Counted from the stretch's first letter, positions 1 to 42,082 are shown. The stretch is DNA of 64,000 bases from a bacterium (GCA_043815505.1 JBDRIV010000004.1:7135-71134), one strand, 5' to 3'. Program-made: numbers and translations. The notes: generated by a model from the letters alone, not told the origin.

Positions 1-414
1 TACTAAGGTTTTCATATTGAATTTTTCTGCCAGCCACGACGCGGCCATTAGTGCTAAGGGATCCTTCATAACCAGTCGCGCACTTCTTTTCTTGAATAGT
101 TTTAATTTTCGGCTTTGCAACCATTCATAATATGCTCTTTTTAAATTTCTTTCTTTCCCTAACACGCCAGTCCAATCATAATACGATTCAAATTTTAACA
201 AATGATCAAGGTGATGTAAATATTTTTCTTCGTTATCGCTATCAATATATTCAAACCAGTAACGAAATTTGAAATTGCATTTTTTGCAGTGCGGACGATT
301 GAGATTAAAAGGCTCATGAAGATAACCAATATTTTCTGCTTTAGCTACAATATTTCCCACCCAAGTTGAACCGGAACGATGAGCTCCAGTTATTAGAATC
401 GGTTGCTTTGACAT
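1..414 (-). CDS. Sulfotransferase-family protein, 5' part only. The start ATG is at 414..412 and the gene runs off the window start. It is not in the ORF track because no stop lies in the window.
   Basis: Reverse translation of 414..1 gives [23 protein letters not shown]...LVMKDPLALMAASWLAEKF. It has an N-terminal P-loop of the 5'-PSB type (R-S-G-S-T-W) and a later KDP motif resembling the 3'-PB motif of PAPS-dependent sulfotransferases. The start ATG overlaps the gmd stop (TAATG). Confidence 0.5.
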   Translation of the reverse strand, partial: MSKQPILITGAHRSGSTWVGNIVAKAENIGYLHEPFNLNRPHCKKCNFKFRYWFEYIDSDNEEKYLHHLDHLLKFESYYDWTGVLGKERNLKRAYYEWLQSRKLKLFKKRSARLVMKDPLALMAASWLAEKFNMKTLV

Positions 415-1472
415 TAATATGTAATTTTATTTTTCTTAACTAGTTCCATATCGGCTTCAACCATCATTTTTACTAGATCTTTGAATTTGGTTCTTGCTTC
501 CCAACCAAGTATTTTTTTTGCTTTGGTTGGATCCCCAATCAATTCGTTAACTTCGGTTGGTCGATAATATTTCGGATCAGAAGCAATAATTGTCTGACCG
601 GTTTTTTTATTAATTCCTACCTCGTCTTTTCCTGATCTTTTCCATTCAATATCAATTATTAAGACTTTACAAGCTTCTTCAATGAATTGTCTGACAGAAT
701 AAGTTTCACCAGTTGCAATTACATAATCGTCAGCTTGTGATTGCTGTAACATCAGCCACATTGATTCCACATATTCTTTGGCATAACCCCAGTCTCTTTT
801 AGCATCCAGATTTCCAATATAAAGTTTTTCTTGTTGTCCGTTTACAATCTTAGCAAGTCCCATGGTAATCTTTCTGGTTACAAATGTTTGACCACGACGA
901 GGAGATTCATGATTAAATAAAATGCCATTGCAACCGAAAATATTATAAGCTTCACGATAATTTTTCACAATCCAATATGCATAAAGTTTGGCTACACCAT
1001 AAGGACTACGGGGATAAAAAGGTGTTGTTTCCGATTGTTTTGGCTCCTGTATTTTTCCATATAATTCGGAAGTTGATGCCTGATATAATTTTACTTTTTC
1101 AGTCATTTCCAAAAGTCTGATGGCTTCCAAAATTCTTAATGTTCCCAACGCATCAGAGTTAGCGGTATATTCCGCCGTATCAAAACTAACTTGCACGTGA
1201 CTTTGAGCACCCAAATTATAAATTTCATCAGGCTGAATTTCTTTTACTAATCTAATTAAATTAGTGGCATCAGTTAATTCGCCGTAATGTAAAAATAATC
1301 TTTCGGCTTCGTGCGGATCTTTGTACAGATGATTTATACGCCAAGTATTGAAAGTAGAACTTCTTCTAATTACCCCGTGAACCTCATACCCTTTTTCCAT
1401 TAGTAAATCTGCTAGGTATGATCCATCTTGTCCGGTTATTCCTGTTATTAATGCTATTCTTCGATTCGTCAT
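414..1472 (-). CDS. gmd: GDP-mannose 4,6-dehydratase (long, 352-aa type)
   Basis: N-terminus [25 protein letters not shown] and the SDR catalytic region ([10 protein letters not shown]) are typical of Gmd. Confidence 0.9.
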
Positions 1473-1481
1473 AAATTAATC

Positions 1482-2294
1482 TTAGTACTTATAGTCTAAT
1501 TTTCTGTTTCTTTTTTTAGCCTTAAGCAATTTATATTTCTTCATTATACCAAGTTTTAAAAATATGTAAGACAGTATATTTATTATTTTTCTTTTTATAA
1601 TAAATTTAAATAACCTGATTTTTCCTAATTGTTTTTTTATTATTCTTTTTTCTTCATCATATGCTAATTTTTTATTTGCCCCAAAACCACCGGTTGTAAA
1701 TTTAGCTACTATCTTTTTTGTATATTTACTTGGGTATTTTCCGATAAACACTTTGTAAAGTAGATCCGTATCAGCTGCCAACTTAAAACTCAAGTCAAAC
1801 ATTCCTAGCTTTTTAATAACTGAGGTTTTAATAAATACTCCCTGATGATTCATTGATTCAACTTTTCTCACAACGTCTTTTTCATAATATTTTATGTTGG
1901 TGAGATAGTTTAATTGGGATTTTTTATCTTGGATTAAAACGTTCCCAAAAATCATTGCTAAATCCTTCTCTTGTTCAAATTCCTTTACAATGTTTGATAT
2001 AACTTCTTTATCATATAATTCATCATCGGCATTTAGGAAATAAATAACTTCACCATTGGCAATCGAAATACCTTTGTTCATTCCATCATAGATTCCTTTG
2101 TCCCCTTCCGAAACAAAATAGTCTATTGAATTTTTATACTTTTCAATAATTTCTAAAGTACCATCTTTTGAACCGCCGTCAATAATAATATACTCAATAT
2201 TACTATAATTTTGTTGAAGTATGCTTTTTATAGTTTGTTCAATCGTATCTTTTGCATTAAACACGGTTGTAACAACAGAAATTTTTAAACTCAT
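1482..2294 (-). CDS. Glycosyltransferase family 2
   Basis: N-terminal GT-A signature VVTTVFNAKDTIEQTIKSILQQNYSNIEYIIIDGGSKDGT and a DDE/DxD region. Confidence 0.75.
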   Translation of the reverse strand: MSLKISVVTTVFNAKDTIEQTIKSILQQNYSNIEYIIIDGGSKDGTLEIIEKYKNSIDYFVSEGDKGIYDGMNKGISIANGEVIYFLNADDELYDKEVISNIVKEFEQEKDLAMIFGNVLIQDKKSQLNYLTNIKYYEKDVVRKVESMNHQGVFIKTSVIKKLGMFDLSFKLAADTDLLYKVFIGKYPSKYTKKIVAKFTTGGFGANKKLAYDEEKRIIKKQLGKIRLFKFIIKRKIINILSYIFLKLGIMKKYKLLKAKKRNRKLDYKY

Positions 2295-2308
2295 TATTTA
2301 TACTGAAA

Positions 2309-3175
2309 CTAATATATACGCTTTTTTATCCTTAGCCATGTATATGTAAAAAATCTTACTATAGCAGGCGGAGTTAAACAAAAGTATTTATAAAAAATAT
2401 GCCTTTTAAAATCAAACTTTAGACCATTCTTTTTTACAAAGATCAAATAGCTTTTTCGCATTGATTTATAATCTCTTCTGGTTTTATTATACTCTTTATT
2501 CTTAATACTATCAGACATTTTATCATGTATTATTTTACTATCAGTGGATATATAGGACTTATATTTACAATTCATTAGATAAATACCTTTTTGCAAATCT
2601 TCAAAACCAACAAAGTATTCTGGATCCCATTTGATAGTTGATGACAATTCTTTTCTGTATACAATACATCCAGAACATAAATCATCAACATGGAGATATT
2701 TTTCAACATTTTCATGTATTTTTGGTCTCGACATTTTTAACACCCCATTCTTAATGTTGAAATTCCTCCCACAGACCTTCCATTTCTTTTCATTACTATT
2801 AACGTCTTCAGTCAATATGCAACCCATTGCACCAACATCAGAATGCTTTGCAAACATTTTGAATATTGGCTCACACCATCCAGGCTGAAGATACATGTCA
2901 TCATCTAAAGACATTAAGAAAGGTGTTTCAATTCCTTCAACTAGTTTTGCTCGCCCGCGTGATGCTCCAATATTTTCACTTGAATATATTATTTCATAAT
3001 TATCATTTGAATTCAGTTCTTCTAGATATTCTTTAATGCTTTCATTTATATATCCATTATTAAGTATCTTAACACTGTGATTAACTGTTGTGTTTTTTTT
3101 TATGTGTTCAATAGTTTTTTTTAGTTTATCCAACCTTCTATAATGTACTATGTAAATTGTAAGCATCGTATTCAT
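2309..3175 (-). CDS. Glycosyltransferase-like protein (GT-A/GT2-like)
   Basis: A 288-aa protein with a DDD motif (MSLDDDMYLQPGW). It sits tightly packed between GT genes. Confidence 0.5.
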   Translation of the reverse strand: MNTMLTIYIVHYRRLDKLKKTIEHIKKNTTVNHSVKILNNGYINESIKEYLEELNSNDNYEIIYSSENIGASRGRAKLVEGIETPFLMSLDDDMYLQPGWCEPIFKMFAKHSDVGAMGCILTEDVNSNEKKWKVCGRNFNIKNGVLKMSRPKIHENVEKYLHVDDLCSGCIVYRKELSSTIKWDPEYFVGFEDLQKGIYLMNCKYKSYISTDSKIIHDKMSDSIKNKEYNKTRRDYKSMRKSYLIFVKKNGLKFDFKRHIFYKYFCLTPPAIVRFFTYTWLRIKKRIY

Positions 3176-3196: not shown

Positions 3197-4087
3197 TTAA
3201 TTACTAATTCCTACTTTTTCAAAGAATATTTCGAAGGCGCATTTTTGCTTAAGCAATCTTTCATCTTTCATGAGATCATCAATAGTAATTCTTTCCACTG
3301 TTGTTTCTTTTAGAATACTACGGAAATGATTATCATGAGTTATTGCCACCATAATCTCAAAACCATTATCTTTTAGTTTTTGTAACATTTCCTTACTTTT
3401 TTCGGGTTCTATAATATGAGTATGTAGTTCAATAAACAAATGCAGATTAGGATTGTTTTTTAGTGTTTCATTCATCCCTTTAAGTGCCTCATATTCATAA
3501 CCCTCAATGTCCATACGAATCATATCTATATTTCCTTTGTTTTTCAGAAAATTATCAACGCTTTTAGTTTGAACCATTTCTGTTTTATAATCACGTGTTT
3601 TTGGTTTACCCATAGAATGAAGATTTGAACTACTAGTTACATACAAAGGATATTCACCATCTTTGTCACTAATAGCCATGTGATTTACTTCAATATTATT
3701 AGCATTATTCAACTTAATATTTCTTTTTAGAAGATTAATATTATTTTTTTCTGGTTCCACCGCATAAACTTTTCCTGTCTCACCAATTATTTTTGATTCC
3801 ATTAAAGCATAATAACCAACATTGGCTCCCAATTCAAATATTTTAAAACCGGGTTTAATTAATTGTTTAATTACTTTTGTTGCTTCAAATTCTCTCACAC
3901 CATCCATGGCTAATTGTTTAAAAATACTTGCTTCATATACATCCAAACCTTTCTTGGCTGTGGAAATATACATTTTATAACCATTAATATTCTTCACATA
4001 TTCATTAGAGGGATGAAATAATTTTATAAGCAACCATTTTATGTTCCTATAAATTATAGCCACTACGAACTTGATTTTGCTAAACAT
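3197..4087 (-). CDS. FkbM-family SAM-dependent methyltransferase (likely sugar O-methyltransferase)
   Basis: Motif FELGANVGYYAL, which is the FkbM-family class I MT glycine-rich motif. Confidence 0.7.
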   Translation of the reverse strand: MFSKIKFVVAIIYRNIKWLLIKLFHPSNEYVKNINGYKMYISTAKKGLDVYEASIFKQLAMDGVREFEATKVIKQLIKPGFKIFELGANVGYYALMESKIIGETGKVYAVEPEKNNINLLKRNIKLNNANNIEVNHMAISDKDGEYPLYVTSSSNLHSMGKPKTRDYKTEMVQTKSVDNFLKNKGNIDMIRMDIEGYEYEALKGMNETLKNNPNLHLFIELHTHIIEPEKSKEMLQKLKDNGFEIMVAITHDNHFRSILKETTVERITIDDLMKDERLLKQKCAFEIFFEKVGISN

Positions 4088-4107: not shown

Positions 4108-5241
4108 TTAATTATTTTTTAATTCAGCGATACTTCTATATACGGTCATATATTTATTTGCCATATTTGACCAACTAAGTTCTTCTGCTTTTTTTCTACT
4201 TGCAATTTTCAATTTTTTTAAATATTTATTATCTTCGCAAATGGATTTCATGGATTTATAAACTGCATCAACAGATCTATTTGATAAAATAATACCATTA
4301 TCTTTAATTATTTCTTTTGCTCCACCAGTATTGGAAGTAATTATGGCTAAACCTGATGCCATAGCTTCCAACAAAGAATTACTCATCCCCTCATTTTTTG
4401 AAGGTAAAACCATTGCATCTGCTTGTCCAAGATATTCAGATATTTCTTCATGTTTTAACACTCCAGCAAATTCAATATTTTTACTCAATCCTTTTTCAAT
4501 AACTATTCTTTTTAGTTCTGCTTCCATATTTCCACCACCGATTAATACTAAACGAGCATTTTTATAATCACCAACTATTTTTAAAAAAGCTTCTACTAAA
4601 ATATCTATACCCTTTCTTTTAATTAGTCTGGAGGTAGAAATAAAAACTACTTCTTTTTTATTTCTATTACTACTTGTAAATTCTTTTATATCTACACCAT
4701 TGTAGATTACATCTATTGGTTGTCTTGGATTTGTTAATAAGGCTTTGTTTTTCAAATCTAGGGAATTTGCTATAACCTTTTTAGCTCTTTTCCAAATATT
4801 TTTACTCATTCTAACAAACAACAATTTATCTAACCAATAAAATCTATCATTATAAAATGGTACGTCACTTCCTCTTAGACTTACTATAAATGGCAAATTT
4901 AAATTTTTTGCAACATAACCACAAGGAATACCAAAAAAAGCATGGACTAAATCATATTTATTCAAAGCAATTAATTTCTTACAATATTTCCGAGCTCTAA
5001 GGGCATATTTTAACAATTCAGTCATTCGTTGATAATGCAAATTTCCGTTTTTGTTAACATCTAAATAATGAACTTTTATTTTGTCAGAGAAATTTTCAAC
5101 TTTACTTTCATTTACTGACGAAGTTACCAGATCAATTTCTAAATTCTTAATCTTACTAAATTCTTTTAGCAAATAATAAGTCGCATTACCAGCTCCCCCA
5201 CCCAGTGGCGGAAATTCATAATTTAAGACTAATATTTTCAT
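4108..5241 (-). CDS. Glycosyltransferase family 4 (GT-B)
   Basis: C-terminal EX7E-type motif (SKNEGMSNSLLEAMASGLAIITSNTGGAKEII). Confidence 0.8.
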   Translation of the reverse strand: MKILVLNYEFPPLGGGAGNATYYLLKEFSKIKNLEIDLVTSSVNESKVENFSDKIKVHYLDVNKNGNLHYQRMTELLKYALRARKYCKKLIALNKYDLVHAFFGIPCGYVAKNLNLPFIVSLRGSDVPFYNDRFYWLDKLLFVRMSKNIWKRAKKVIANSLDLKNKALLTNPRQPIDVIYNGVDIKEFTSSNRNKKEVVFISTSRLIKRKGIDILVEAFLKIVGDYKNARLVLIGGGNMEAELKRIVIEKGLSKNIEFAGVLKHEEISEYLGQADAMVLPSKNEGMSNSLLEAMASGLAIITSNTGGAKEIIKDNGIILSNRSVDAVYKSMKSICEDNKYLKKLKIASRKKAEELSWSNMANKYMTVYRSIAELKNN

Positions 5242-6946: not shown

Positions 6947-7743
6947 TTAATTTCCTTTGTTATTTTCTTATTTAATTCTTTGTTAGCAGAACCTACTATA
7001 CCATCTAAATTATGGGGATCTTTTTTATTAAATTTCAAATCTTGACCCTGCATTCCTGTTACTACTCCTCCCGCTTCTTGTAAAACCACCACGCCACCAG
7101 CTGAATCCCATTCCCATGATTTTGGGCTTAAAGATAGGTAAATATCAGCTTTATTTTCAGCTATTTTACACATTTTCAAGCTTACACTGCCACATTTTAC
7201 ATAATTTTTCACCTGCAATTTCTTGGCCAAATCTTCTTCAGGACCGCCGGAATGATTACGACTAACGATGGCTCTCGCTTCTGCTGTTTCTGAAACTGTA
7301 GAAGTTTTTAACCCAACCTTTTGTCCATCCTTAATTTTATATGAACCTTGTCCTTTTATACCGTAATATGTTTCTCCAGTTACTGGCTGATAAACAATTC
7401 CCATAATGGGCTCCCCATTTTTTATTAAACCAACAATTATAGAAAATTCTCCTGTTTTTTGAATAAAATCCTTGGTTCCGTCCAAGGGATCAACTGTCCA
7501 AATAAATTCGGAGTCTAAACGTTTCTTATCATCAATAGATTCTTCAGCTAAAACTGGATAACCATATTTTTTTAAACCTGCAACTAAAATATCGTTTGAT
7601 TCTGTATCAGCTTTAGTTAAAGGACTGTTATCATCTTTTATTTCAATTTTATAATCCTTATTATAATAAAATCTTACTCGTTCTCCGGCAGTGTGAACTA
7701 ATCTTATAATTTCGGAAGCAACAGTTTCGGGATTATTCATCAA
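6943..7743 (-). CDS. 3'(2'),5'-bisphosphate nucleotidase (CysQ) / inositol-monophosphatase family
   Basis: IMPase-family motifs WTVDPLDGTKDF and the GG..E region. It is translationally coupled to the PAPS synthase, which fits a PAP-recycling role. Confidence 0.65.
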   Translation of the reverse strand: MMNNPETVASEIIRLVHTAGERVRFYYNKDYKIEIKDDNSPLTKADTESNDILVAGLKKYGYPVLAEESIDDKKRLDSEFIWTVDPLDGTKDFIQKTGEFSIIVGLIKNGEPIMGIVYQPVTGETYYGIKGQGSYKIKDGQKVGLKTSTVSETAEARAIVSRNHSGGPEEDLAKKLQVKNYVKCGSVSLKMCKIAENKADIYLSLSPKSWEWDSAGGVVVLQEAGGVVTGMQGQDLKFNKKDPHNLDGIVGSANKELNKKITKEIK

Positions 7744-8680: not shown

Positions 8681-8852
8681 AAATTAGGTGCCTTTTTTAG
8701 CAAAATTTAAAATCACTATATAGCACAACTTATCATATTTTTTTGTTCTTGGCAATTCTTTTTTCTTTTCGATAATAAGCTTATAATTTGGCTTATTTAA
8801 GGGTTTTATTGCTGTTTATAATAACTTGCTTAAGTGTGTTATAATAACCTAT

Positions 8853-16078: not shown

Positions 16079-16084
16079 ATTATT

Positions 16085-29952: not shown

Positions 29953-30178
29953 TCTCTTTCTCCTGATTTGCCACACGACGATGGCAAAAGTTGTAGTTGC
30001 AGTCGTACTCGAACAAACTTAGTTTTGCACCTCCTTTCCACTTTTCCTTCAGTTGTAATGAACGTTATTTATTATATTTATTTTTAACAGCACCAGATGG
30101 TACTGTCCTGCCCTTTCTATATTCTTTTTAAACACTTCTTACTGCTTTCAGAAAGAGCTGGATAGTATCACCTATTTT

Positions 30179-35798: not shown

Positions 35799-36943
35799 TA
35801 TGTTTTTAATTGATTAATCATTACTGGTTCCATAATATTTTCTGATGAAACTTTTGCCAATTCAGAAATACCTTCTTTAACAGATTTAATTATATAAGAA
35901 ACGTCTTTGTCTGAAAGTTTGTCATGAACTGGCAAGGTAATTAAATTTTGCCAAATTTTGTCAGCCACGGGATATTTGGTCGGATCATCTTGAAAATAGG
36001 TATGTAAATGTAAGGGTTTGTAATGCACAGAAACATGAATTCCCTTATTTGTTAGAAACTCAACTAAAGCATTTCTATTAGTCACTCTGGCAATATAATA
36101 TTGAACCGTTTCCGAATAAACAGGTTTTTTTATAAAACCATTTAGTTCAGCATCATAGCGAGCAGCGATAACACGACGTTTGGCATTTTTTTTGTCCAAT
36201 TTTTTCAATTGTTCTAGTGCAATAGCGGCCGGAATATCAGTCATATAATATTTATAACCAAGCGAATCAATGTCGTACTCCCAGGCATAGTTCCCTTTTC
36301 TAATTCGTTCGTAGGTACTTTCCTTTACTCCGTACCAAATCATAGCTTTAATTTTTTCGTACAACTTTTTATTATAAGTCGTTATCATGCCACCATCACC
36401 AGCGGGCAAATTTTTTATAGCTTGAAATGACCAACAGGCCAAATCTCCATCTTGTCCAGCACCTTTAGACAAACAAGCATGAGCACAATCTTCAATTACA
36501 GGGCCTGCAAATTTTTCCTTAATCGCTTTTATATTGGCAACAACTCCCGCATTATGAACAGCAATTACTGCTTTAGTATTTTTTGTAATTGGCAATTTTT
36601 CAGGATCAAGACATAAAGAATCTGGTTCAATATCTGCTAGTACTGTCTGACAATTATTAATCTTAGGTGCCATAGCAGTCGCCACAAAAGTCATGGTCGG
36701 AACGATAACCTCATCTTTATCACTTCCACCAGTAACAGCACCTATATTTAAAGCTTTTAAGGCTAAATCAAGAGCAGCACTGCAAGATGTTACAGCCACA
36801 GTATAAGGAACACTAATATAATCGGCGAATTTCTTTTCGAATTCTTCGACTTCTTGCCCTTTCCCCCACCATCCAGATTTGATAATCTTAGCCAAGGCCT
36901 TAATTTCTGCGCGCCCACCAACGGGACGCTGATTTGGAATCAT
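35798..36943 (-). CDS. DegT/DnrJ/EryC1/StrS-family PLP-dependent sugar aminotransferase
   Basis: The N-terminal region and the overall 381-aa size match ArnB/WecE/PglE-type aminotransferases (SGWWGKGQEVEEFEKKFADYI...AVTSCSAALDLAL). Confidence 0.85.
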   Translation of the reverse strand: MIPNQRPVGGRAEIKALAKIIKSGWWGKGQEVEEFEKKFADYISVPYTVAVTSCSAALDLALKALNIGAVTGGSDKDEVIVPTMTFVATAMAPKINNCQTVLADIEPDSLCLDPEKLPITKNTKAVIAVHNAGVVANIKAIKEKFAGPVIEDCAHACLSKGAGQDGDLACWSFQAIKNLPAGDGGMITTYNKKLYEKIKAMIWYGVKESTYERIRKGNYAWEYDIDSLGYKYYMTDIPAAIALEQLKKLDKKNAKRRVIAARYDAELNGFIKKPVYSETVQYYIARVTNRNALVEFLTNKGIHVSVHYKPLHLHTYFQDDPTKYPVADKIWQNLITLPVHDKLSDKDVSYIIKSVKEGISELAKVSSENIMEPVMINQLKT

Positions 36944-36952: not shown

Positions 36953-37831
36953 TTATCTAAGATTATTAAAATAATCTTCTGGGTTGGGTGTTTGTTTTAA
37001 GGTTTCAGGTTGAGAATTTTCTGTTTCCTGAATTTTTAATTTATCTAAACTTTCGTCTTGAGAATCGTTGTTTTCATTAAAATAATTTTCTTCTTCAAAT
37101 TCGGTATTGCCAGGTTCGGGCGAATCGTCTGCTCGACCTTCATAATCTTCATTTACTTGATCATTGCTTTCTAATATCTCTTCTTTACCTTCATCATTTA
37201 CTTTTACCGTCACGGCATCAATATCTTTTCTAAAACCAATGGCAATAATAATTACCACAGAGAAAATAATTCCCAACAGTAGAGCACTAAAAGTGTTGGT
37301 AGCAATAGCTGGTTTAACTGGATTTTCCGAAGTGGTTGGCACGTTAACCATTTTGATCGTTACCGCATCTCCACCACCATGATAAATGTCGCCTTCATAA
37401 GTTAAAACTGAAGCAACGGCGCGAGCAATTTTTTCAGATTGATTAGGATCGGGATTGTAAACTGCTAATTTCATTATTCCCGATTTGTCAGATAAATTAG
37501 CATCTATGGTTTCGTCCCATTGTTTTTGACGTTCAATCGGATCACTTGAATAAGTATTGGCAATATCATATTTTGAATCCATTACCCGCTCAAAAAATGA
37601 GCTGGTATGAACCATATTGGTTAAAAGTGACGCTATAGTTTCGGCTGATCTAGTTGCAGTGTAGGCATCCATCGAACCCTCTTGTTCTTGAATAACAAGC
37701 ATGGTTACTTCTGACTTATATTCAGGTGTTTGAACAGCACTAAAAATAAACGTTAAAACTGTTAACGTTGTTATAAACAAGGCCAAATATGGCCAAATCT
37801 TTTTTAGGATATTGATGTAATTGTTGGGCAT
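36953..37831 (-). CDS. Wzz-like polysaccharide co-polymerase (chain-length determinant), short periplasmic domain
   Basis: An N-terminal TM helix is followed by the Wzz signature TPEYKSEVTMLV (P-x-Y-x-[AS]-x-x-x-L-V). A second TM helix lies near the C-terminus, followed by an acidic cytoplasmic tail. Confidence 0.5.
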   Translation of the reverse strand: MPNNYINILKKIWPYLALFITTLTVLTFIFSAVQTPEYKSEVTMLVIQEQEGSMDAYTATRSAETIASLLTNMVHTSSFFERVMDSKYDIANTYSSDPIERQKQWDETIDANLSDKSGIMKLAVYNPDPNQSEKIARAVASVLTYEGDIYHGGGDAVTIKMVNVPTTSENPVKPAIATNTFSALLLGIIFSVVIIIAIGFRKDIDAVTVKVNDEGKEEILESNDQVNEDYEGRADDSPEPGNTEFEEENYFNENNDSQDESLDKLKIQETENSQPETLKQTPNPEDYFNNLR

Positions 37832-37914: not shown

Positions 37915-39078
37915 CTACTGTTCAGCCAGAACTATTTTTAGTGAAAAATTATTATCTTCTCTAATCACTTTTAGTATTACTTCATCTTGAGGATCAAAGT
38001 TTTGCATAATTTTGGAAAATGATGATGTTTTTCCAATCTCATAATCATCAATTTGCGTTATTATATCACCCGATCGCAGTTTGGCTTCAGCGGCAGGTGA
38101 ATCTTCTACCACAGCCGATATGCGGACATCATCAGAGTAAATGAGAATTCCATGATCAGAGGGCAAATCATTTAGTGAAGCAAATTCAGGAGTTAAAGGA
38201 ATGTATCTAATTCCTAAAAATGGTCTCAGTATTTTGCCACCAGCAATAACACTGTCAATAGCTTTTTTGGCATCGTCAATTGGCAAAGCGAAACCAATAA
38301 GCTGACCCGAACTATCTACAGCAGTATTTATACCAACAACGCGACCAGATAAATCAAGTAGCGGTCCGCCCGAATTGCCGGGATTAATAGAAGCATCAGT
38401 TTGAATAACTCCTTCTAGTTGCTCACTTTGCGAGGCAAATGAACCACCGGCGTATATATTTCTGTCTAAACCACTAACAATGCCTTTGGTTACAGTGTTT
38501 TGATAATTACCCAAGGCATTACCAATCGCTACTACAGTTTGTCCAACTTCCAAAGCAGAAGAGTTTCCTAATTCTAAAACTGGTAAAGTAGAGGCTTCAA
38601 TTTCTAAAAAAGCTAAATCATTAATCGTATCTCTTATTACCTTGGTGACTGTAAACTTTTTCCCGGCACTGGTAATTACTGTATAGGTTGCATCAGTAGC
38701 GGAAACAACATGACGGTTGGTTAAAATTAAACCATCACTGGTAATGATAAATCCCGTTCCACTTGCCTGTTGATTAATAGTTTGCCCAAAAATATTTGTA
38801 CTTTGAATATCAGCCATAATACTAACAACCGAGGAACTGGCTTCTTTAATTATATCTGTTACCGCTTCATTAATTTCGACATTTATAACTTCTTCACTCG
38901 TAGCATTGTTGTTGTTCGTTTCAGTATTTGTTTTAGAACTAAAGTAACGATCGGTAACAAAACCTCCTAAAGCGCCAGCTACTAAAGAAATTATAATTAG
39001 TAAAACTAGATATCGACCTTTTCTTTTTGGCGATTTCTTCATTTTTATTGTTTCTGTTTCCATATTTATATTGTCCAT
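37915..39078 (-). CDS. HtrA/DegP-family serine protease with PDZ domain
   Basis: Catalytic motifs TNRHVV and GNSGGPL, a C-terminal PDZ domain, and an N-terminal TM anchor. Confidence 0.8.
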   Translation of the reverse strand: MDNINMETETIKMKKSPKRKGRYLVLLIIISLVAGALGGFVTDRYFSSKTNTETNNNNATSEEVINVEINEAVTDIIKEASSSVVSIMADIQSTNIFGQTINQQASGTGFIITSDGLILTNRHVVSATDATYTVITSAGKKFTVTKVIRDTINDLAFLEIEASTLPVLELGNSSALEVGQTVVAIGNALGNYQNTVTKGIVSGLDRNIYAGGSFASQSEQLEGVIQTDASINPGNSGGPLLDLSGRVVGINTAVDSSGQLIGFALPIDDAKKAIDSVIAGGKILRPFLGIRYIPLTPEFASLNDLPSDHGILIYSDDVRISAVVEDSPAAEAKLRSGDIITQIDDYEIGKTSSFSKIMQNFDPQDEVILKVIREDNNFSLKIVLAEQ

Positions 39079-39848
39079 TGTGAAGTACTGATTGTTATTA
39101 TAACAGCTATTAAGCTTATTGTTAGAGTCCTAATTATAGCTGCTCGATTCAAAGTATAAGTTAAACTTTGAGCCATGATTTGGGACAAGGCAAAGTAAAC
39201 TGTCAGAATTGTAAAGGCAATGGCTAAATTAGTTATTGGCCAAAACATTATTACCCAACCAACTTCGGCTATAAGAAATCCGATAATCACAACCTCTTTC
39301 CACCACTCTCTTTTCATCACATCATAAATCCATAAGCGTTCATAAAATAAGGCAGCGGAAATAAGAAATAACGGCAACATGATAGACCATGGTGGTAAAT
39401 CCAAAAATATTCTAAAGCTATAAATGGCACTTACAAAAAAGAAGAATGTAAATAAAATGAAAATTTCAAAATATTTTCCGTAATATTCTTTTTGTTTTCC
39501 TTCACTTGTCGTCATCATATTATTGATAACAAACAACATCCAACCATAGATTAAGCTGGCAATAACTAAGAAAATGTGAGCAATCATTTCATTTCTTAAC
39601 AAGGCCACAAAACTTCCTAAACTTATAATGTAAAGGATGGGAAGGATAAAATTCTTTAGCTTCTCTTTTTGACGAAGGTGAGGTTTGATAATTCCGAGTA
39701 ACATTATACTCGTTAAAAGAATAATGGCAGCAAAAATTGCTATAAAACTTCTAGGATTACGCAATACATATTCAGTTCCCGCTAAAAGAATTAGCGGACT
39801 GAAGAAAACAAATATTTTATTGGGGTCAAATTTCATGTTATCAGACAA
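39066..39848 (-). CDS. Polytopic membrane protein, unknown function
   Basis: A 260-aa protein with about 7 hydrophobic helices. It overlaps the HtrA start by 13 nt. Confidence 0.5.
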   Translation of the reverse strand: MSDNMKFDPNKIFVFFSPLILLAGTEYVLRNPRSFIAIFAAIILLTSIMLLGIIKPHLRQKEKLKNFILPILYIISLGSFVALLRNEMIAHIFLVIASLIYGWMLFVINNMMTTSEGKQKEYYGKYFEIFILFTFFFFVSAIYSFRIFLDLPPWSIMLPLFLISAALFYERLWIYDVMKREWWKEVVIIGFLIAEVGWVIMFWPITNLAIAFTILTVYFALSQIMAQSLTYTLNRAAIIRTLTISLIAVIITISTSQWTI

Positions 39849-39889
39849 AAAACACCCCTGGAGGGAATGTTTTCTGCTTCAAATATAAA

Positions 39890-40096
39890 TTATTTAATTG
39901 CGCCAATTCTGAACATCTTGGTGCCGCATTTTGGACAAGTTCCTTGAACTGCTGGACGACCATTTTTCATCTCAATTTGGTTTGGCTCGTTCATTTGTTG
40001 TTTAGCTTTGCATTTGACACAGTAAGCCTCAACTTGTGGTGTGTCATCACTTTGGGTGTCGTCACTTTTTGTGTCTTCACTTGGTGCATCTGCCAT
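39890..40096 (-). CDS. Small zinc-ribbon protein
   Basis: A 68-aa protein with CVKC...CPKC four-Cys ribbon and an acidic N-terminus. Confidence 0.5.
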   Translation of the reverse strand: MADAPSEDTKSDDTQSDDTPQVEAYCVKCKAKQQMNEPNQIEMKNGRPAVQGTCPKCGTKMFRIGAIK

Positions 40097-40121
40097 GTTG
40101 TTTTTGTTAATTATAAATAAT

Positions 40122-41336
40122 CTAGTTTTTTGCCTTATCTAAGGTAACTTTAACGGTTTTTTCCTTTCCGTCATGTAATACCCTTAGATCAATTATAGCA
40201 CTTACCTGCTTATTGGCAATAATTTTGGCCAATCCGTTGGAAGAATCGATTTTTTCACCATTTACCTCTAAAATTATATCGTTTTCTTCAAGTCCCGCTT
40301 TGTCGGCTGGACTGCCGGGAATTATTGCTAAATCATTCGGATTTTCACCTCGTAAAAGAAGTGCACCGTAGTCAACATTTAAATTATTTCTTTCTTTTAA
40401 GCTTTCTGTAACGATTATATAGCGAACGCCCAAATAGGGACGAACAATTTCTCCATCTTTTATTACTCCATTGATTATACTCTTTACAGAATTAATGGGA
40501 ATAGCAAAGCCAATGAGCTGTCCCGAAGCATCAATGGCGGTATTAATCCCTACTACCTGACCGTCAATATTAACTAAGGGACCACCGGAATTACCGGGAT
40601 TAATGGCTGCATCGGTTTGAATTACATTTTCTAAGTTTTCTGAGTTTAGGCCACTTGAAGCAGTTATATTTCTACCAGTAGCACTTATTATTCCGGCCGT
40701 AACTGAATTCTCATATTCTCCCAAAGAATTGCCAATAGCAATAGCTCGCTGTCCAATTTTGAGAGCGTCAGAATCACCAAATTCAACAACTGTTAAATTC
40801 TTAGCCTCAATCTTTATAACTGCCAAATCGGTAATTGTATCTTTAGCAATAATTTCAGCCGGATATTCTTCCCCATCAGATGTAACCACCGTATAATCTG
40901 CTTCCCCGTCACTCACTACATGTCGATTGGTAATAATTAAGCCATCTTCGGAAACAATAAAACCAGAACCGCCACCAATTTCAGTTTGTCCGCGTTCATT
41001 TTCTGGCAATTCAAAGGTGTAAGGAAATAGATTATCGAAAATTCCACCTTCGCCAAGATTATTATAAATCTTTTCTAAATCCTTGGTTACCACAATACTT
41101 ACAACTGCTGGTTTAACTTTGTCAACTGCAGATATAATTCCAGAGTCTTCATCAATAGTTACCGCTTTATTGTTTTGATTTCTGCTTATTTCACCGTTAT
41201 TATTTTTAACCAAAATATTAATGGTAACATAGGTTGTGATAAGTGAAGTTACAATAGCTACGATTAGAATTAGAAAAACTAATTTTTTAATGTGCCGCTC
41301 TTTTTTGGCTTGTGGTTGCCTTTTTTCGTCAATCAT
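40122..41336 (-). CDS. HtrA/DegP-family serine protease with PDZ domain (second paralog)
   Basis: TNRHVV, GNSGGPL, a PDZ domain, and an N-terminal TM helix. Confidence 0.8.
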   Translation of the reverse strand: MIDEKRQPQAKKERHIKKLVFLILIVAIVTSLITTYVTINILVKNNNGEISRNQNNKAVTIDEDSGIISAVDKVKPAVVSIVVTKDLEKIYNNLGEGGIFDNLFPYTFELPENERGQTEIGGGSGFIVSEDGLIITNRHVVSDGEADYTVVTSDGEEYPAEIIAKDTITDLAVIKIEAKNLTVVEFGDSDALKIGQRAIAIGNSLGEYENSVTAGIISATGRNITASSGLNSENLENVIQTDAAINPGNSGGPLVNIDGQVVGINTAIDASGQLIGFAIPINSVKSIINGVIKDGEIVRPYLGVRYIIVTESLKERNNLNVDYGALLLRGENPNDLAIIPGSPADKAGLEENDIILEVNGEKIDSSNGLAKIIANKQVSAIIDLRVLHDGKEKTVKVTLDKAKN

Positions 41337-41341
41337 AATTT

Positions 41342-42082
41342 TTAATTACTTTTTTTGTTTAATAATCTTTTTTGCTTTCTTATGGTAATTCTTACTTTTA
41401 TAAGATCGTTTAAAGTTTTGCAAGCTGCAATAATTGGATTTAGTGTTGTGGCTTCAGAATTCTCCCATTTTACTGGTAATTCTTTTAGTTTAAAATTATA
41501 TAATCTAGCTAGGGCTAGAATTTCGAAGTCGAAACTCCACCCAGACATAGTTTGCTTGGTAAAAACTTTTTCTACACATTTTTTATTAAATAATTTAAAG
41601 CCACACTGAGTATCATGAATTCCAGGAAGTAATAATATTCTTATTAATAAATTACCGGTTTTCCCAATTATTTGTCTGTACCACGATTGACTTTTTTGAA
41701 TGTCTGCTCCAACAATTGCCCGTGATCCTAAAATCAAATCATACCTATTGGTTTCTGGCCAAAATGTTTCAATTTGATTAATAGTAGTAGAATTATCTGC
41801 ATCCATAAACAACCGCCATTCGCCAGTTGCTTTAAGCATGCCAGTTTTTACAGCCATGCCTTTTCCCTTGTTTTCATTTAATCTGACATGCTGAGCAGGA
41901 ATTTGGCTAGTAGCAACAAAATCTTGAACAATTAAATCTGTTTTATCAGTTGATCCATCAGAAACAACAATAATTTCGGCTGAATAATCTTTAGTACTTA
42001 AATAAGCTTCAATTTCTTTCAAAGTAGGTTTAATTCTTTTTTCTTCGTTGTAAGCTGGTATTATAACCGATAATGTTATCAT
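41342..42082 (-). CDS. Glycosyltransferase family 2 (DPM/DPG-synthase-like, soluble)
   Basis: LSVIIPAYNEEKRI...EIIVVSDGSTDKT...DADN. Confidence 0.75.
   Translation of the reverse strand: MITLSVIIPAYNEEKRIKPTLKEIEAYLSTKDYSAEIIVVSDGSTDKTDLIVQDFVATSQIPAQHVRLNENKGKGMAVKTGMLKATGEWRLFMDADNSTTINQIETFWPETNRYDLILGSRAIVGADIQKSQSWYRQIIGKTGNLLIRILLLPGIHDTQCGFKLFNKKCVEKVFTKQTMSGWSFDFEILALARLYNFKLKELPVKWENSEATTLNPIIAACKTLNDLIKVRITIRKQKRLLNKKSN

What the first reader, a model, noticed from the sequence alone, without database searches (positions are those of the whole stretch)
1..42082. About 42-kb uninterrupted single-strand glycan super-locus with Wzy/Wzz components but no visible Wzx or initiating phosphotransferase
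More than 35 consecutive minus-strand genes span 1..42082 (only 8853..12717 is on plus). They combine three NDP-sugar pathways, at least ten GTs, aminotransferase, methylation, sulfation, a Wzy-like polymerase and a Wzz-like co-polymerase. No Wzx flippase, ABC exporter or WbaP/WecA-type priming transferase is present in the window. Either these are encoded elsewhere or the GtrB/GT-C arm and the 260-aa or 483-aa membrane proteins substitute. For a small-genome organism this is an extraordinary investment in one envelope polymer (S-layer glycan, capsule, or host-interaction glycan).
Basis: inference. Interest (0 to 1): 0.55.

Follow-up and report, generated by a model that had tools for sequence, protein, structure and literature searches.

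The report
Composite envelope-glycan gene array in CPR
A 42-kb stretch of a tiny-genome (Patescibacteria/CPR) bacterium really is packed with sugar-polymer genes, but it is a patchwork of several modules; its "missing" flippase and priming genes most likely sit elsewhere in the genome, as they do in most related gene clusters.

Summary
The gene content is confirmed. Positions 1-42082 hold 38 tightly packed genes (35 minus, 3 plus). They encode three or four NDP-sugar routes, PAPS synthesis with two sulfotransferases, nine glycosyltransferases, a Wzy_C protein, a weak CpsC/Wzz-like protein and methyltransferases. No Wzx, ABC exporter, PHPT or PNPT was detected in the window.

The window is a Patescibacteria genome in which the whole 64 kb runs on one strand. 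The array flows straight out of the ribosomal/SecY operon, so co-orientation reflects genome style. The cluster is cut by the left window edge.

At least three modules are conserved separately in relatives:
- a GtrB/GT-C three-component arm;
- a widespread module of radical-SAM/SPASM, Wzy_C, GT4, GH/FG-GAP and DUF1972-GT4 genes;
- a variable low-GC block of sulfation, methylation and GT genes.

Of 41 related loci with at least 8 kb of flank, 3 carry a Wzx and 7 a PHPT. Where these are linked they are canonical (L173, L125, L161, L171). Unlinked flippase and priming genes are therefore the norm.

The verdict is a real, large, composite glycan region that most likely works as a conventional lipid-linked pathway. 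The modestly new points are the conserved rSAM/Wzy_C module and PAPS sulfation in a CPR genome.

The parts
1..414 (-). N-terminal 138 aa of a sulfotransferase that runs off the left window edge, so the cluster continues beyond position 1.
   Evidence: Translation [17 protein letters not shown].... Sulfotransfer_3 E 8e-5, below the cut-off.
414..1472 (-). GDP-mannose 4,6-dehydratase (Gmd1).
   Evidence: PF16363, 507.7 bits.
1482..3175 (-). Two GT2 glycosyltransferases (1482-2294 and 2309-3175) in the low-GC block (GC 0.27-0.29).
   Evidence: PF00535, 101.7 and 57.1 bits. GC values.
3197..4087 (-). FkbM-family methyltransferase.
   Evidence: PF05050, 85.3 bits.
4108..5241 (-). GT4 glycosyltransferase.
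   Evidence: PF00534, 128.8 bits.
5243..7743 (-). PAPS supply. A fused ATP sulfurylase/APS kinase (5243-6946) and a CysQ-like PAP phosphatase (6943-7743).
   Evidence: PF01747 263.7 bits, PF01583 203.4 bits, PF00459 183.1 bits. The same pair occurs in Moraniibacteriota locus L053.
7733..8680 (-). GtrB/ArnC/PgfS-like GT2 with two C-terminal TM helices. It is a putative polyprenyl-phosphate sugar synthase, transcribed divergently from the GT-C gene.
   Evidence: PF00535 113.5 bits. ArnC NF007986 E 1e-54 and PgfS E 2.5e-42, both below their cut-offs. TM helices. A 71%-identical orthologue holds the same position in L172.
8826..10826 (+). GT-C fold membrane glycosyltransferase, 666 aa (657 aa from the annotated ATG at 8853). 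About 15 TM helices and an invariant RDD motif in an outward loop.
   Evidence: AF2 model pLDDT 73.7, pTM 0.79. The top Foldseek hits are all GT-C enzymes: ALG12, STT3/PglB, ArnT, ALG9, DPY19. Weak PMT_2. Homologue P0132 carries PMT_2 and is named GT39. Invariant columns.
10826..12717 (+). p506 (one N-terminal TM helix plus a large extracytoplasmic domain) and p123 (123 aa, 4 TM helices), both co-transcribed with the GT-C gene. p123 is a candidate small flippase by size and topology only.
   Evidence: No family hit even at E<=5. TM helices. The same trio in the same order occurs in L172 at 45% and 40% identity.
12714..13664 (-). UDP-glucuronate 4-epimerase-like SDR.
   Evidence: PDB 5u4q E 1e-90; 6zl6 (deposited as 'Epimerase domain-containing protein'; UDP-GlcA 4-epimerase by my recollection) E 5e-53.
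13666..14739 (-). Sulfotransferase, the lowest-GC gene in the region (0.242).
   Evidence: PF00685 33.7 bits, above the cut-off of 22. GC.
14789..17245 (-). UDP-glucose 6-dehydrogenase (14789-16078) and SAM synthetase MetK (16085-17245).
   Evidence: Pfam. The MetK-Ugd adjacency is conserved in L171 at 74% and 59% identity.
17261..19159 (-). GDP-D-rhamnose route. Gmd2 (17261-18217) and an Rmd-like GDP-6-deoxy-D-lyxo-4-hexulose reductase (18239-19159).
   Evidence: PF16363 448 bits. PDB 2pk3 E 1.3e-55.
19152..20087 (-). GalE-like NDP-hexose 4-epimerase.
   Evidence: TIGR01179 205.6 bits, below the cut-off of 262.
20089..21474 (-). Secreted 461-aa protein with no family match and an apparent four-fold ...G(K/E)(K/R)R... 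repeat.
   Evidence: No Pfam or NCBIfam hit. Signal-like N-terminal TM helix. The repeat was seen by eye in the translation.
21485..24036 (-). dTDP-sugar genes RmlA (21485-22204), RmlD (22201-23025) and RmlB (23041-24036). No RmlC.
   Evidence: PF00483 203.9 bits, PF04321 317 bits, PF16363 251.6 bits. An RfbC-seeded HMM finds nothing in the window.
24036..24452 (-). HIT-family protein. It is probably not glycan-specific.
   Evidence: PF01230, 96.8 bits.
24535..25683 (-). GT4 with an N-terminal DUF1972-type domain. It is a conserved member of the rSAM/Wzy_C module.
   Evidence: PF00534, PF13439 and DUF1972. Orthologues of 42-45% identity in L082-L084. Present in 24 of 41 loci. A perfect 12/12 sigma70-like site lies upstream at 25732-25704.
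25738..28791 (-). Membrane-anchored 1017-aa protein. It has a lectin/CBM-like region, a GH51-like TIM-barrel hydrolase region (residues 333-643) and C-terminal FG-GAP repeats.
   Evidence: PDB 3s2c E 5e-19. FG-GAP Pfam hits. The FG-GAP region is 30-45% identical to the GHL15/FG-GAP proteins of L082-L084.
28975..29976 (-). Secreted 333-aa protein of unknown family with an outlier GC of 0.478.
   Evidence: No hits. GC.
30179..32036 (-). Methyltransf_23 methyltransferase with an N-terminal Zn-ribbon-like CxxC pair (30179-31078) and a radical-SAM/SPASM enzyme (31035-32036).
   Evidence: Pfam. The rSAM has 775 homologues at E<1e-30, mostly from Patescibacteria. Of 59 loci with enough downstream sequence, its next gene is a Wzy_C, GT4 or FG-GAP gene in 50.
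32070..34432 (-). Two GT-B glycosyltransferases with distant TuaH similarity (32070-33188 and 33185-34432).
   Evidence: PF00534 and PF13692. TuaH E 1.6e-6 and 2.8e-20, far below the cut-off. In L081 both are fused in frame with the rSAM into a single ORF.
34347..35798 (-). Wzy_C-superfamily membrane protein (483 aa, about 10 TM helices). It could be a polymerase or a ligase; this is unresolved.
   Evidence: PF04932 57.8 bits. The motif DNSYLMIAYKAGVPG stands where WaaL has H[NSQ]x9Gxx[GTY]. Only 3 relatives at E<=1e-30 among 1.84e9 representatives.
35798..36943 (-). DegT/PseC/ArnB-family sugar aminotransferase.
   Evidence: PF01041 288 bits. PseC 228 bits and ArnB 208 bits, both below their cut-offs.
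36953..37831 (-). CpsC/Wzz-like (PCP-like) 2-TM protein with an acidic C-terminal tail.
   Evidence: PF02706 E 0.0019, below the cut-off. TIGR01006 E 7e-7 over residues 7-197. It lies next to Wzy_C in L081, and with HtrA and DUF5656 in L083, L099 and L103.
37915..41336 (-). HtrA-type protease (37915-39078), 9-TM DUF5656 protein (39066-39848) and a second HtrA (40122-41336). This is a conserved Patescibacteria envelope neighbourhood and is not demonstrably glycan-specific.
   Evidence: Pfam. Conserved together in L083 and L171.
41342..42082 (-). Soluble Dpm1/PgfS/AglJ-like GT2, a putative polyprenyl-phosphate hexose synthase. It overlaps RuvX by 4 nt, at the position where 15 other Parcubacteria-type loci carry a WecA-like PNPT.
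   Evidence: PF00535 97.5 bits. PgfS and dolichyl-P hexose transferase hits. Positional comparison.

Best explanation
The region is a real but composite envelope-glycan gene array of a Patescibacteria (Parcubacteria-type CPR) bacterium. It is not a single operon for a single polymer. I separate four parts.

(A) Precursor supply:
- GDP-D-rhamnose and GDP-4-keto-6-deoxymannose (Gmd x2, Rmd);
- dTDP-4-keto-6-deoxyglucose derivatives (RmlA/B/D, DegT);
- UDP-GlcA and UDP-GalA (Ugd, epimerase);
- PAPS (Sat/CysC, CysQ) and SAM (MetK).

(B) A three-component extracytoplasmic glycosylation arm. A GtrB/ArnC-like synthase loads a sugar onto polyprenyl phosphate. The lipid-linked sugar is flipped, perhaps by the 4-TM p123. 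The 666-aa GT-C enzyme then transfers it to an envelope acceptor.

(C) A widely conserved Patescibacteria module built around a radical-SAM/SPASM enzyme, a Wzy_C membrane protein, GT-B transferases, a surface GH-like/FG-GAP protein and a DUF1972-type GT4. In this genome it is extended with DegT, a methyltransferase and a CpsC/Wzz-like protein.

(D) A low-GC block of GT2, GT4, FkbM and sulfotransferase genes that tailors the glycan by methylation and sulfation.

Most likely mechanism (inferred, not shown):
1. A repeat unit is built on polyprenyl diphosphate, starting from a priming PHPT or WecA-like PNPT encoded outside the window.
2. A Wzx encoded outside the window flips it.
3. The Wzy_C protein polymerises or ligates it outside the membrane, with the PCP-like protein.
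4. The GtrB/GT-C arm decorates it.

The absence of Wzx and priming genes is therefore a matter of gene linkage, not of mechanism.
For: Shown:
- Family assignments of all 38 genes.
- GT-C fold of the 666-aa protein.
- Taxonomy: the best SecY relatives are Patescibacteria, up to 67% identity. S5 is followed directly by L15 with no L30 between them.
- Module B is conserved as a unit in L172: GtrB | GT-C, p506, p122 | epimerase.
- Module C is conserved in L081, with GT1d, GT1c and the rSAM fused into one ORF. It is also conserved in L082-L084, L173 and L175.
- Across 41 metagenomic loci with at least 8 kb of flank, Wzy_C is present in 29 and a DUF1972-type GT4 in 24.
- In those 41 loci a Wzx is linked in 3, a PHPT in 7 and an ABC ATPase in 1.
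- When linked, these genes are canonical. L173 has Polysacc_synt + Wzy_C + rSAM + DUF1972-GT4 + CoA_binding_3/Bac_transf. L125 has a PHPT scoring 425 bits to TIGR03025 plus a Wzx. L171, a relative that shares GT2c, MetK, Ugd, GtrB and GT-C, has two Wzx within 10 kb.
- WecA-like PNPTs exist in this bacterial group: 15 loci carry one, and the three tested score higher to WecA than to MraY.
- The window cuts the cluster on the left.
- Compositional mosaic, GC 0.24-0.48.
- The five best sigma70-like sites on the minus strand lie just upstream of gene starts: 25732, 37887, 32102, 28844 and 18266.
- Co-orientation continues through GT2c-RuvX-Map-Adk-SecY and the ribosomal genes.
Against: - No Wzx, PHPT or PNPT of this organism has actually been seen, because the rest of the 255-kb contig and of the MAG could not be read.
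- Most homologous loci also lack them within 10 kb. That fits 'unlinked', but it does not exclude a pathway that does not need them.
- The polymerase-versus-ligase role of Wzy_C is unresolved. The WaaL histidine is replaced by Asp and the structure model failed (pLDDT 43).
- The PCP assignment is sub-threshold.
- My Wzx detection in metagenomic loci relied on a TM count, clustering and Pfam scans of representatives, so some divergent flippases may have been missed.
- Promoter-like sites are not enriched overall relative to shuffles.
- The sugar products, and the acceptors of sulfation and methylation, are inferred from family membership only.
Confidence: 0.62

Rival explanations
1. The Wzy_C protein is a WaaL/PglL/WsaB-like ligase (O-oligosaccharyltransferase), not a polymerase. 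It would attach a lipid-linked glycan to a surface protein (S-layer, pilin or one of the secreted proteins encoded in the array) or to peptidoglycan. Chain extension would then happen in the cytoplasm through the many GTs, as in S-layer glycan (slg) clusters of Gram-positive bacteria.
For: - Pfam Wzy_C covers ligases as well as polymerases.
- NCBI names the protein 'O-antigen ligase family'.
- Four secreted or anchored proteins are embedded in the array: 461 aa, 333 aa, 1017 aa and 506 aa.
- The motif spacing x[NSQ]x9Gxx[GTY] is kept.
- In L175 the Wzy_C-rSAM-GHL15 trio stands without neighbouring GTs, next to Mur genes.
Against: - The WaaL signature His is Asp here.
- A PCP-like gene lies next to Wzy_C in L081 and one gene away here. 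By my own knowledge this pairing is typical of Wzy polymerases.
- slg-type clusters normally carry an ABC exporter or a Wzx. None is present here.
- No S-layer protein or pilin was identified in the window.
Confidence: 0.2
2. The pathway is non-canonical and has no PHPT/PNPT or Wzx. Glycan assembly would be primed on polyprenyl monophosphate by the Dpm1/AglJ-like GT2c or the GtrB-like GT2, as in haloarchaeal N-glycosylation. It would be flipped by a small unclassified membrane protein (the 4-TM p123 or the 9-TM DUF5656) and transferred outside by the GT-C and/or Wzy_C proteins.
For: - Two polyprenyl-phosphate hexose-synthase-like GT2s are present.
- GT2c occupies exactly the slot after RuvX where 15 other Parcubacteria-type loci carry a WecA-like PNPT.
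- p123 has the size and topology of GtrA or ArnE/F and is syntenic with the GT-C gene in L172.
- 32 of 41 homologous loci show no priming gene within their flanks.
Against: - Homologous modules that do show priming and flipping genes show canonical PHPT and Wzx.
- p123 and DUF5656 have no detectable similarity to any flippase family, even at E<=5.
- To my knowledge, Wzy_C enzymes use diphosphate-linked substrates.
- The positional replacement of WecA by GT2c is only circumstantial.
Confidence: 0.07
3. The clustering has no functional meaning. The glycan genes are simply neighbours in a streamlined genome that is co-oriented with replication, and they serve unrelated products such as peptidoglycan decoration, glycolipids or protein glycosylation.
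For: - The whole 64 kb is on one strand.
- Housekeeping genes (MetK, HIT, HtrA x2, RuvX) are interspersed.
- The block downstream of SecY is not conserved in relatives.
Against: - Sub-clusters recur as units in distant genomes.
- GT1d, GT1c and the rSAM are fused in L081.
- MetK-Ugd-GtrB-GT-C co-occur in L171.
- The precursor genes match the transferase classes present.
Confidence: 0.11

Closest known systems
Wzx/Wzy-dependent glycan clusters with an unlinked priming enzyme (E. coli O-antigen rfb clusters using wecA; Bacillus subtilis teichuronic acid tuaA-H)
   Same: - A Wzy_C-superfamily membrane protein and a PCP-like 2-TM protein.
- Several cytoplasmic GTs, two of them with distant TuaH similarity.
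- Ugd (equivalent to TuaD) and NDP-sugar genes in the same array.
- E. coli K-12 itself shows wecA far from the rfb cluster.
   Different: - No Wzx in the array, whereas rfb and tua clusters carry one.
- No TuaA-type PHPT.
- A radical-SAM/SPASM enzyme and a GH-like/FG-GAP surface protein are conserved partners.
- PAPS synthesis and sulfotransferases are included.
- The host is a CPR bacterium, which is expected to lack LPS.
- All family scores are far below the equivalog cut-offs.
Three-component periplasmic glycosylation systems (GtrA/GtrB/GtrC, ArnC/ArnE-F/ArnT, Streptococcus mutans PgfS/PgfM1/PgfE/PgfM2)
   Same: - A GT2 with two C-terminal TM helices that scores best to ArnC and PgfS.
- A GT-C fold transferase transcribed divergently next to it.
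- A small 4-TM protein and an NDP-sugar epimerase adjacent.
   Different: - The small membrane protein has no similarity to GtrA (PF04138) or to ArnE/F.
- An extra 506-aa extracytoplasmic protein of unknown family belongs to the unit.
- The acceptor is unknown.
S-layer glycan (slg) clusters of Geobacillus/Paenibacillus (own knowledge, not tested here)
   Same: rml genes, several GTs, methylation, and a Wzy_C-domain ligase in one array of a bacterium presumed to lack an outer membrane (not tested here).
   Different: - slg clusters carry a WsaP-type PHPT and an ABC transporter.
- No S-layer gene was identified here.
Conserved Patescibacteria rSAM/SPASM - Wzy_C - GT4 - GHL15/FG-GAP - DUF1972-GT4 neighbourhood
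   Same: The window contains every element. The rSAM is 45-53% identical and the DUF1972-GT4 42-45% identical to their counterparts, and the FG-GAP region 30-45%.
   Different: - The gene order is rearranged.
- The Wzy_C and the two GTs belong to divergent subfamilies, found otherwise only in L081 and a handful of proteins.
- The hydrolase domain is GH51-like rather than GHL15.
- DegT, the Wzz-like gene and the sulfation genes are added.

Membership tests
Wzx/Wzy-dependent polysaccharide pathway | Wzy-type multi-TM polymerase (Wzy_C/O-antigen ligase superfamily) | tested here: met
   PF04932 57.8 bits against a cut-off of 31.7, and about 10 TM helices. Polymerase versus ligase is not resolved.
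Wzx/Wzy-dependent polysaccharide pathway | MOP-family Wzx flippase in the locus | tested here: not met
   No PF01943, PF13440 or MurJ hit in any window ORF. Present in relatives L171, L173, L125, L142 and L161.
Wzx/Wzy-dependent polysaccharide pathway | Initiating PHPT (Bac_transf) or PNPT (WecA/MraY family) | tested here: not met
   No hit in the window. A PHPT is linked in 7 of 41 related loci and in L173. The rest of the genome cannot be tested.
Wzx/Wzy-dependent polysaccharide pathway | Polysaccharide co-polymerase (Wzz/CpsC) with two TM helices flanking an outside domain | tested here: inconclusive
   PF02706 18.9 bits, below the cut-off of 25.5. TIGR01006 E 7e-7, 28.9 bits against a cut-off of 296. 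TM helices at residues 15-33 and 182-200. Adjacent to Wzy_C in L081.
Three-component polyprenyl-P-sugar glycosylation (Gtr/Arn/Pgf type) | GtrB/ArnC-type GT2 with C-terminal TM helices | tested here: met
   PF00535 113.5 bits. ArnC model E 1e-54 over its full length, below the equivalog cut-off. Two TM helices.
Three-component polyprenyl-P-sugar glycosylation (Gtr/Arn/Pgf type) | GT-C fold transferase | tested here: met
   The AF2 model (pLDDT 73.7) matches only GT-C enzymes at the top of the list, with E down to 8e-8 and probability 1.00.
Three-component polyprenyl-P-sugar glycosylation (Gtr/Arn/Pgf type) | Small GtrA- or ArnE/F-type flippase | tested here: inconclusive
   p123 has the right size, four TM helices and conserved synteny. 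It has no similarity to GtrA, ArnE or ArnF, or to any Pfam family at E<=5.
WaaL-type O-antigen ligase | Periplasmic-loop motif H[NSQ]x9Gxx[GTY] with a catalytic His (recalled from the literature) | tested here: not met
   The window protein has DNSYLMIAYKAGVPG. The spacing is kept but His is replaced by Asp.
Teichuronic acid (tua) system | The set TuaA (PHPT), TuaB (Wzx), TuaD, TuaE, TuaF, TuaG and TuaH | tested here: not met
   Analogues of TuaD, TuaE, TuaF and TuaH are present, but only at superfamily level (TuaH E 3e-20, 72.6 bits against a cut-off of 550). TuaA and TuaB are absent.
PAPS-dependent sulfation | ATP sulfurylase, APS kinase, PAP phosphatase and a sulfotransferase | tested here: met
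   PF01747 263.7 bits, PF01583 203.4 bits, PF00459 183.1 bits, PF00685 33.7 bits (cut-off 22). The acceptor was not tested.
dTDP-L-rhamnose pathway | RmlA, RmlB, RmlC and RmlD all present | tested here: not met
   RmlA, RmlB and RmlD are present. No RmlC or dTDP_sugar_isom was found in the window.
GDP-D-rhamnose pathway | Gmd plus Rmd reductase | tested here: met
   Gmd2 PF16363 448 bits. The adjacent SDR matches Rmd structure 2pk3 at E 1.3e-55. Enzyme specificity was not tested.

The most novel reading that the evidence does not exclude
In this Patescibacteria lineage the Wzy_C-centred glycan system would work without a dedicated Wzx and without a phosphoglycosyl transferase. Assembly would be primed on polyprenyl monophosphate by the Dpm1/AglJ-like GT2c, which sits exactly where other Parcubacteria carry a WecA-like PNPT. 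Translocation would be handled by unclassified small membrane proteins (p123 or DUF5656). The conserved radical-SAM/SPASM partner would carry out a sugar modification not yet described. The product would be a sulfated, methylated envelope polymer of a kind not reported for CPR bacteria.
Probability: 0.06. Interest if true: 0.75.

Novelty: new variant of a known kind. Interest (0 to 1): 0.38.

Why it matters
CPR/Patescibacteria are thought to live attached to host cells, and their surface chemistry is almost unknown. This analysis gives three things.

- **A module map.** It covers one of the densest glycan regions seen in such a genome. The region is about 42 kb, and CPR genomes are typically near 1 Mb (my own knowledge; this genome's size was not measured).
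- **A recurrent, apparently undescribed gene neighbourhood.** It consists of rSAM/SPASM, Wzy_C, GT4, GH-like/FG-GAP and DUF1972-GT4 genes. It occurs in dozens of Patescibacteria contigs and could be a general envelope-polymer system of the group.
- **Evidence for PAPS-based sulfation and methylation of a CPR glycan.**

It also shows that the eye-catching absence of flippase and priming genes is the normal linkage pattern for this module. It is therefore not evidence for a new export mechanism.

Tried and rejected
1. **Reading outside the window.** Exact-protein look-ups of window proteins and exact 54-mer scans of genome and metagenome collections found nothing. Only NCBI protein records exist (MFH15092xx-093xx, locus tags ABIE68_038xx-040xx, contig of 255,102 bp).
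2. **Structure of the Wzy_C protein.** The model had pLDDT 43 from a 3-sequence alignment and was unusable, so no fold search was made.
3. **p123 as GtrA or ArnE/F.** No hit with Pfam at E<=5, NCBIfam, or E. coli YfdG/ArnE/ArnF-seeded HMMs. The flippase role remains a guess.
4. **E. coli Wzx, Wzy and Wzz as seeds.** They found nothing in any CPR locus because they are too divergent. Wzx detection instead used a TM filter, clustering and Pfam scans of representatives.
5. **Iterated ArnC and GtrB HMMs.** They drifted onto the rSAM through fusion proteins, and those hits were ignored.
6. **PNPT hits in rSAM loci.** The one tested (L118) is a true MraY, and L126 was assumed to be the same. Neither was counted as priming.
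7. **tRNA and Rfam scans of the window.** Both were empty.
8. **Terminator and promoter scans.** Neither class of site is enriched over shuffles. Only the positions of the top promoter-like sites are suggestive.
9. **Literature searches.** Queries on CPR sulfotransferases, CPR O-antigen ligases, GHL15, and rSAM with Wzy returned nothing relevant.
10. **An Arn-like (L-Ara4N) pathway.** I considered this because the best hits include ArnC, ArnB, Ugd and a GT-C. I rejected it as a membership claim because there is no ArnA formyltransferase or decarboxylase signature, no ArnD and no ArnE/F.

Full report
**1. What is in the sequence**

The window has about 33% GC. Every large ORF lies on the minus strand except three at 8826-12717.

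Positions 42079-59862 hold RuvX, Map, Adk, SecY, L15, S5 and the rest of the ribosomal protein array, followed by EF-Tu, EF-G, S7 and S12. S5 is followed directly by L15 with no L30 between them. By my own knowledge this is typical of CPR bacteria.

SecY relatives in a species-level genome collection are all Patescibacteria: Moranbacteria, Kerfeldbacteria, Magasanikbacteria and Staskawiczbacteria MAGs. The best identity is 67%.

The proteins occur verbatim in an NCBI MAG labelled only '[bacterium]'. The locus tags are ABIE68_03855-04010 and the contig is 255,102 bp. The contig itself is not held in any collection I could read.

**2. Check of the observation**

Positions 1-42082 contain 38 ORFs with gaps of -86 to +273 nt. 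Pfam, NCBIfam and PDB sequence searches give these assignments:

| Group | Genes |
|---|---|
| GDP-sugar | two GDP-mannose 4,6-dehydratases; an Rmd-type reductase (2pk3, E 1e-55) |
| dTDP-sugar | RmlA, RmlB, RmlD; no RmlC |
| UDP-sugar | Ugd; a UDP-GlcA-4-epimerase-like SDR; a GalE-like SDR |
| Amination | a DegT aminotransferase |
| Methylation and SAM | FkbM and Methyltransf_23 methyltransferases; MetK; a radical-SAM/SPASM enzyme |
| Sulfation | fused ATP-sulfurylase/APS-kinase; CysQ; one complete sulfotransferase and one truncated by the window edge |
| Glycosyltransferases (nine) | GT2 x4, GT4/GT-B x4, one GT-C |
| Polymerase/ligase and partner | a Wzy_C protein; a weak CpsC/Wzz-like protein |
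| Secreted or anchored, unknown or hydrolase-like | 461 aa, 333 aa, 506 aa, 1017 aa |
| Apparently unrelated to glycans | HIT, two HtrA proteases, DUF5656 |

No Wzx/MOP, ABC transporter, PHPT or PNPT is detectable. Pfam found none. HMMs seeded with E. coli K-12 WzxB/C/E, MurJ, WcaJ, WecA and MsbA, iterated over all ORFs of at least 70 aa in six frames, also found none.

The factual core of the finding therefore holds, with these corrections:
- There are nine GTs, not ten or more.
- The Wzz call is below threshold.
- The cluster is cut at position 1.
- Single-strandedness is a property of the whole window.

**3. One locus or several**

Several lines of evidence show a composite.

*Coupling to the ribosomal array.* GT2c (41342-42082) overlaps RuvX. 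Through RuvX it is continuous with Map-Adk-SecY and the ribosomal genes.
- The closest SecY relatives keep GT2c at this place, and more distant ones keep RuvX and an HtrA. None keeps the rest of the block.
- In 15 other Parcubacteria-type loci a PNPT sits at that position. The three I tested score higher to WecA than to MraY.

*The GtrB/GT-C unit.* GtrB(-) | GT-C, p506, p123(+) | epimerase(-) recurs with identical architecture in L172. Identities are 71%, 47%, 45%, 40% and 68%.
- The 666-aa protein folds as a GT-C enzyme. The AF2 model has pLDDT 73.7, and the top Foldseek hits are ALG12, STT3/PglB, ArnT, ALG9 and DPY19.
- This is the architecture of three-component polyprenyl-phosphate-sugar glycosylation systems. 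However, the small 4-TM protein has no similarity to GtrA or ArnE/F.

*The Wzy_C block.* WzzLike-WzyC-GT1d-GT1c-rSAM recurs in L081, a contig of the same MAG as L172. There the two GTs and the rSAM form one continuous ORF.

*The radical-SAM/SPASM gene as a marker.*
- It has 775 homologues at E<1e-30, mostly from Patescibacteria.
- In Pfam-annotated contigs it sits with Wzy_C, GT4s, a GHL15/FG-GAP protein and a DUF1972-type GT4 (L082-L084).
- The minimal form is Wzy_C-rSAM-GHL15/FG-GAP (L175).
- Among 41 metagenomic loci with at least 8 kb of flank, 29 have a Wzy_C and 24 a DUF1972-type GT4.
- Of 59 loci with enough downstream sequence, the gene directly after the rSAM is a Wzy_C, GT4 or FG-GAP gene in 50.

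*Composition.* GC per gene runs from 0.242 (sulfotransferase) to 0.478 (the 333-aa secreted protein). The GT2/FkbM/GT4 block lies at 0.27-0.29.

*Promoter-like sites.* The five best sigma70-like matches on the minus strand all lie just upstream of gene starts, three of them in intergenic gaps. They precede GT4b, the Wzz-like gene, the rSAM, the 1017-aa gene and Gmd2. Such sites are not enriched overall, so this is only suggestive.

**4. The missing flippase and priming enzyme**

In the 41 informative homologous loci, a Wzx (confirmed by Pfam on representatives) is linked in 3, a PHPT in 7 and an ABC ATPase in 1. The two PNPT hits in these loci were not counted as priming: the one tested (L118) is a true MraY, and L126 was assumed to be the same.

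Where these genes are linked, they form the canonical set:
- L173, one of the closest rSAM relatives and the closest on a contig long enough to read context, has Polysacc_synt Wzx, Wzy_C, GT4, two radical-SAM genes, a DUF1972-GT4 and a CoA_binding_3/Bac_transf PHPT in one row.
- L125 and L161 have a PHPT plus a Wzx.
- L171 shares DUF5656-HtrA-GT2c, MetK-Ugd, GtrB and the GT-C with the window. It has two Wzx genes within 10 kb.

The simplest reading has two parts. The module works in an ordinary lipid-diphosphate pathway with Wzx and Wzy (or a ligase). Its priming and flipping genes are usually unlinked.

This has a familiar precedent. In E. coli K-12 the rfb cluster has no initiating enzyme, and wecA lies 1.9 Mb away. 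Because the cluster continues beyond the left window edge, these genes may even be adjacent. I could not test that.

**5. Mechanistic model**

Shown:
- the family and fold assignments;
- the conservation of the modules;
- the linkage statistics.

Inferred:
1. A repeat unit is primed by an unlinked PHPT or WecA-type PNPT.
2. It is extended by the DUF1972-GT4, the two TuaH-like GT-B enzymes and the GT2/GT4 enzymes. The donors would be GDP-D-Rha, dTDP-6-deoxyhexose or aminohexose, and UDP-GlcA or UDP-GalA.
3. It is tailored by SAM-dependent methylation, PAPS-dependent sulfation and an unknown radical-SAM reaction.
4. A Wzx flips it.
5. The Wzy_C protein polymerises or ligates it, with the PCP-like protein.
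6. The GH51-like/FG-GAP surface protein trims or remodels it.
7. The GtrB/GT-C arm decorates it from a polyprenyl-monophosphate sugar.

Whether all of this feeds one polymer is unknown. I consider several products more likely.

**6. Rival readings**

- **Ligase rather than polymerase (0.20).** The WaaL motif spacing is kept, but the His is replaced by Asp. The structure model failed.
- **A pathway free of PHPT and Wzx, primed by GT2c or GtrB (0.07).** GT2c occupies the WecA slot, and most relatives lack linked priming genes. Against it, canonical genes appear in the relatives where linkage exists.
- **Mere neighbourhood without functional coupling (0.11).** Recurrent sub-clusters and a gene fusion contradict this.

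**7. Novelty and score**

As a 'super-locus without Wzx or priming enzyme' the finding is largely explained. It is a composite glycan region with unlinked initiation and flipping genes.

Three things look modestly new:
- the conserved Patescibacteria module of rSAM/SPASM, Wzy_C, GH-like/FG-GAP and DUF1972-GT4 genes, for which I found no description in the paper library;
- a complete PAPS/sulfotransferase set in a CPR genome, seen also in L053;
- a very divergent Wzy_C subfamily, with 3 relatives at E<=1e-30 among 1.84 billion representatives.

I rate it a new variant of a known kind, with interest 0.38.

Noticed in passing
window 45217-46331: Ribosomal protein S5 (45750-46331) is followed directly by L15 (45217-45750) with no L30 gene between them. 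By my own knowledge this is a hallmark of CPR/Patescibacteria, and it agrees with the SecY-based taxonomy.
   Followed up: partly
window 41342-42082 versus L006, L007, L009, L010, L012-L017, L026, L028, L030, L050, L056 at about 13.1-14.2 kb: The slot directly after RuvX holds a Dpm1/PgfS-like GT2 in this genome and its closest relatives. In 15 other Parcubacteria-type loci it holds a PNPT, and the three tested score higher to WecA than to MraY. Two different lipid-carrier-loading enzymes thus occupy the same position at the end of the SecY-Adk-Map-RuvX array.
   Followed up: partly
L081 2880-6170: In MAG GCA_964643415.1 the orthologues of GT1d, GT1c and the radical-SAM/SPASM enzyme lie in one frame without stop codons. 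The gene caller reports one product of at least 1097 aa. This is a natural fusion linking the three functions.
   Followed up: partly
L082-L084, L175 and about 40 of L085-L164: The neighbourhood radical-SAM/SPASM - Wzy_C - (methyltransferase) - GT4 x2 - GHL15/FG-GAP protein - secreted protein - DUF1972-GT4 recurs across Patescibacteria. Its minimal form is Wzy_C - rSAM - GHL15/FG-GAP. I found no description of it in the paper library.
   Followed up: yes
window 28975-29976 and 13666-14739: GC content is extreme for two genes inside the array. The 333-aa secreted protein has 0.478 and the sulfotransferase 0.242, against about 0.35 for their neighbours. This suggests a mosaic or horizontal origin of individual genes.
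   Followed up: no
window 21485-24036: RmlA, RmlD and RmlB are present but there is no RmlC anywhere in the window. A HIT-family gene sits next to RmlB. Either RmlC is elsewhere, or the route ends in a dTDP-6-deoxy-D-hexose or amino sugar rather than L-rhamnose.
   Followed up: partly
window 54616-55092: Ribosomal protein S10 carries an N-terminal extension of about 55 aa that is rich in Lys, Ala and Ser. The protein is 158 aa, against about 100 aa for typical S10 (own knowledge).
   Followed up: no
window 60060-63979: Beyond the ribosomal and EF genes lie two more GT4 genes, a trehalase (PF01204, 286.7 bits) and an ORF resembling the C-terminal part of a trehalose-phosphate synthase (by eye, not scanned). 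This is a further sugar-related group outside the reported range.
   Followed up: partly
window 20089-21474: The secreted 461-aa protein has no family match. By eye it contains four repeats of roughly 60 aa, each containing a motif such as G.(I/V)(Y/F)...(G/E)(K/E)(K/R)R. It is embedded between GalE and RmlA.
   Followed up: no
window 14789-17245 and L171 5471-7980: The MetK-Ugd adjacency is conserved in L171 at 74% and 59% identity. So the SAM synthetase is a stable member of this glycan neighbourhood, not an accidental housekeeping insertion.
   Followed up: partly
window 34347-34432 and 31035-31078: The ORFs overlap by 86 nt (Wzy_C/GT1d) and 44 nt (rSAM/methyltransferase). The GT1d alignment to L081 begins at residue 29, so the true GT1d start is probably the internal Met at residue 23 and the overlap is shorter.
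   Followed up: no
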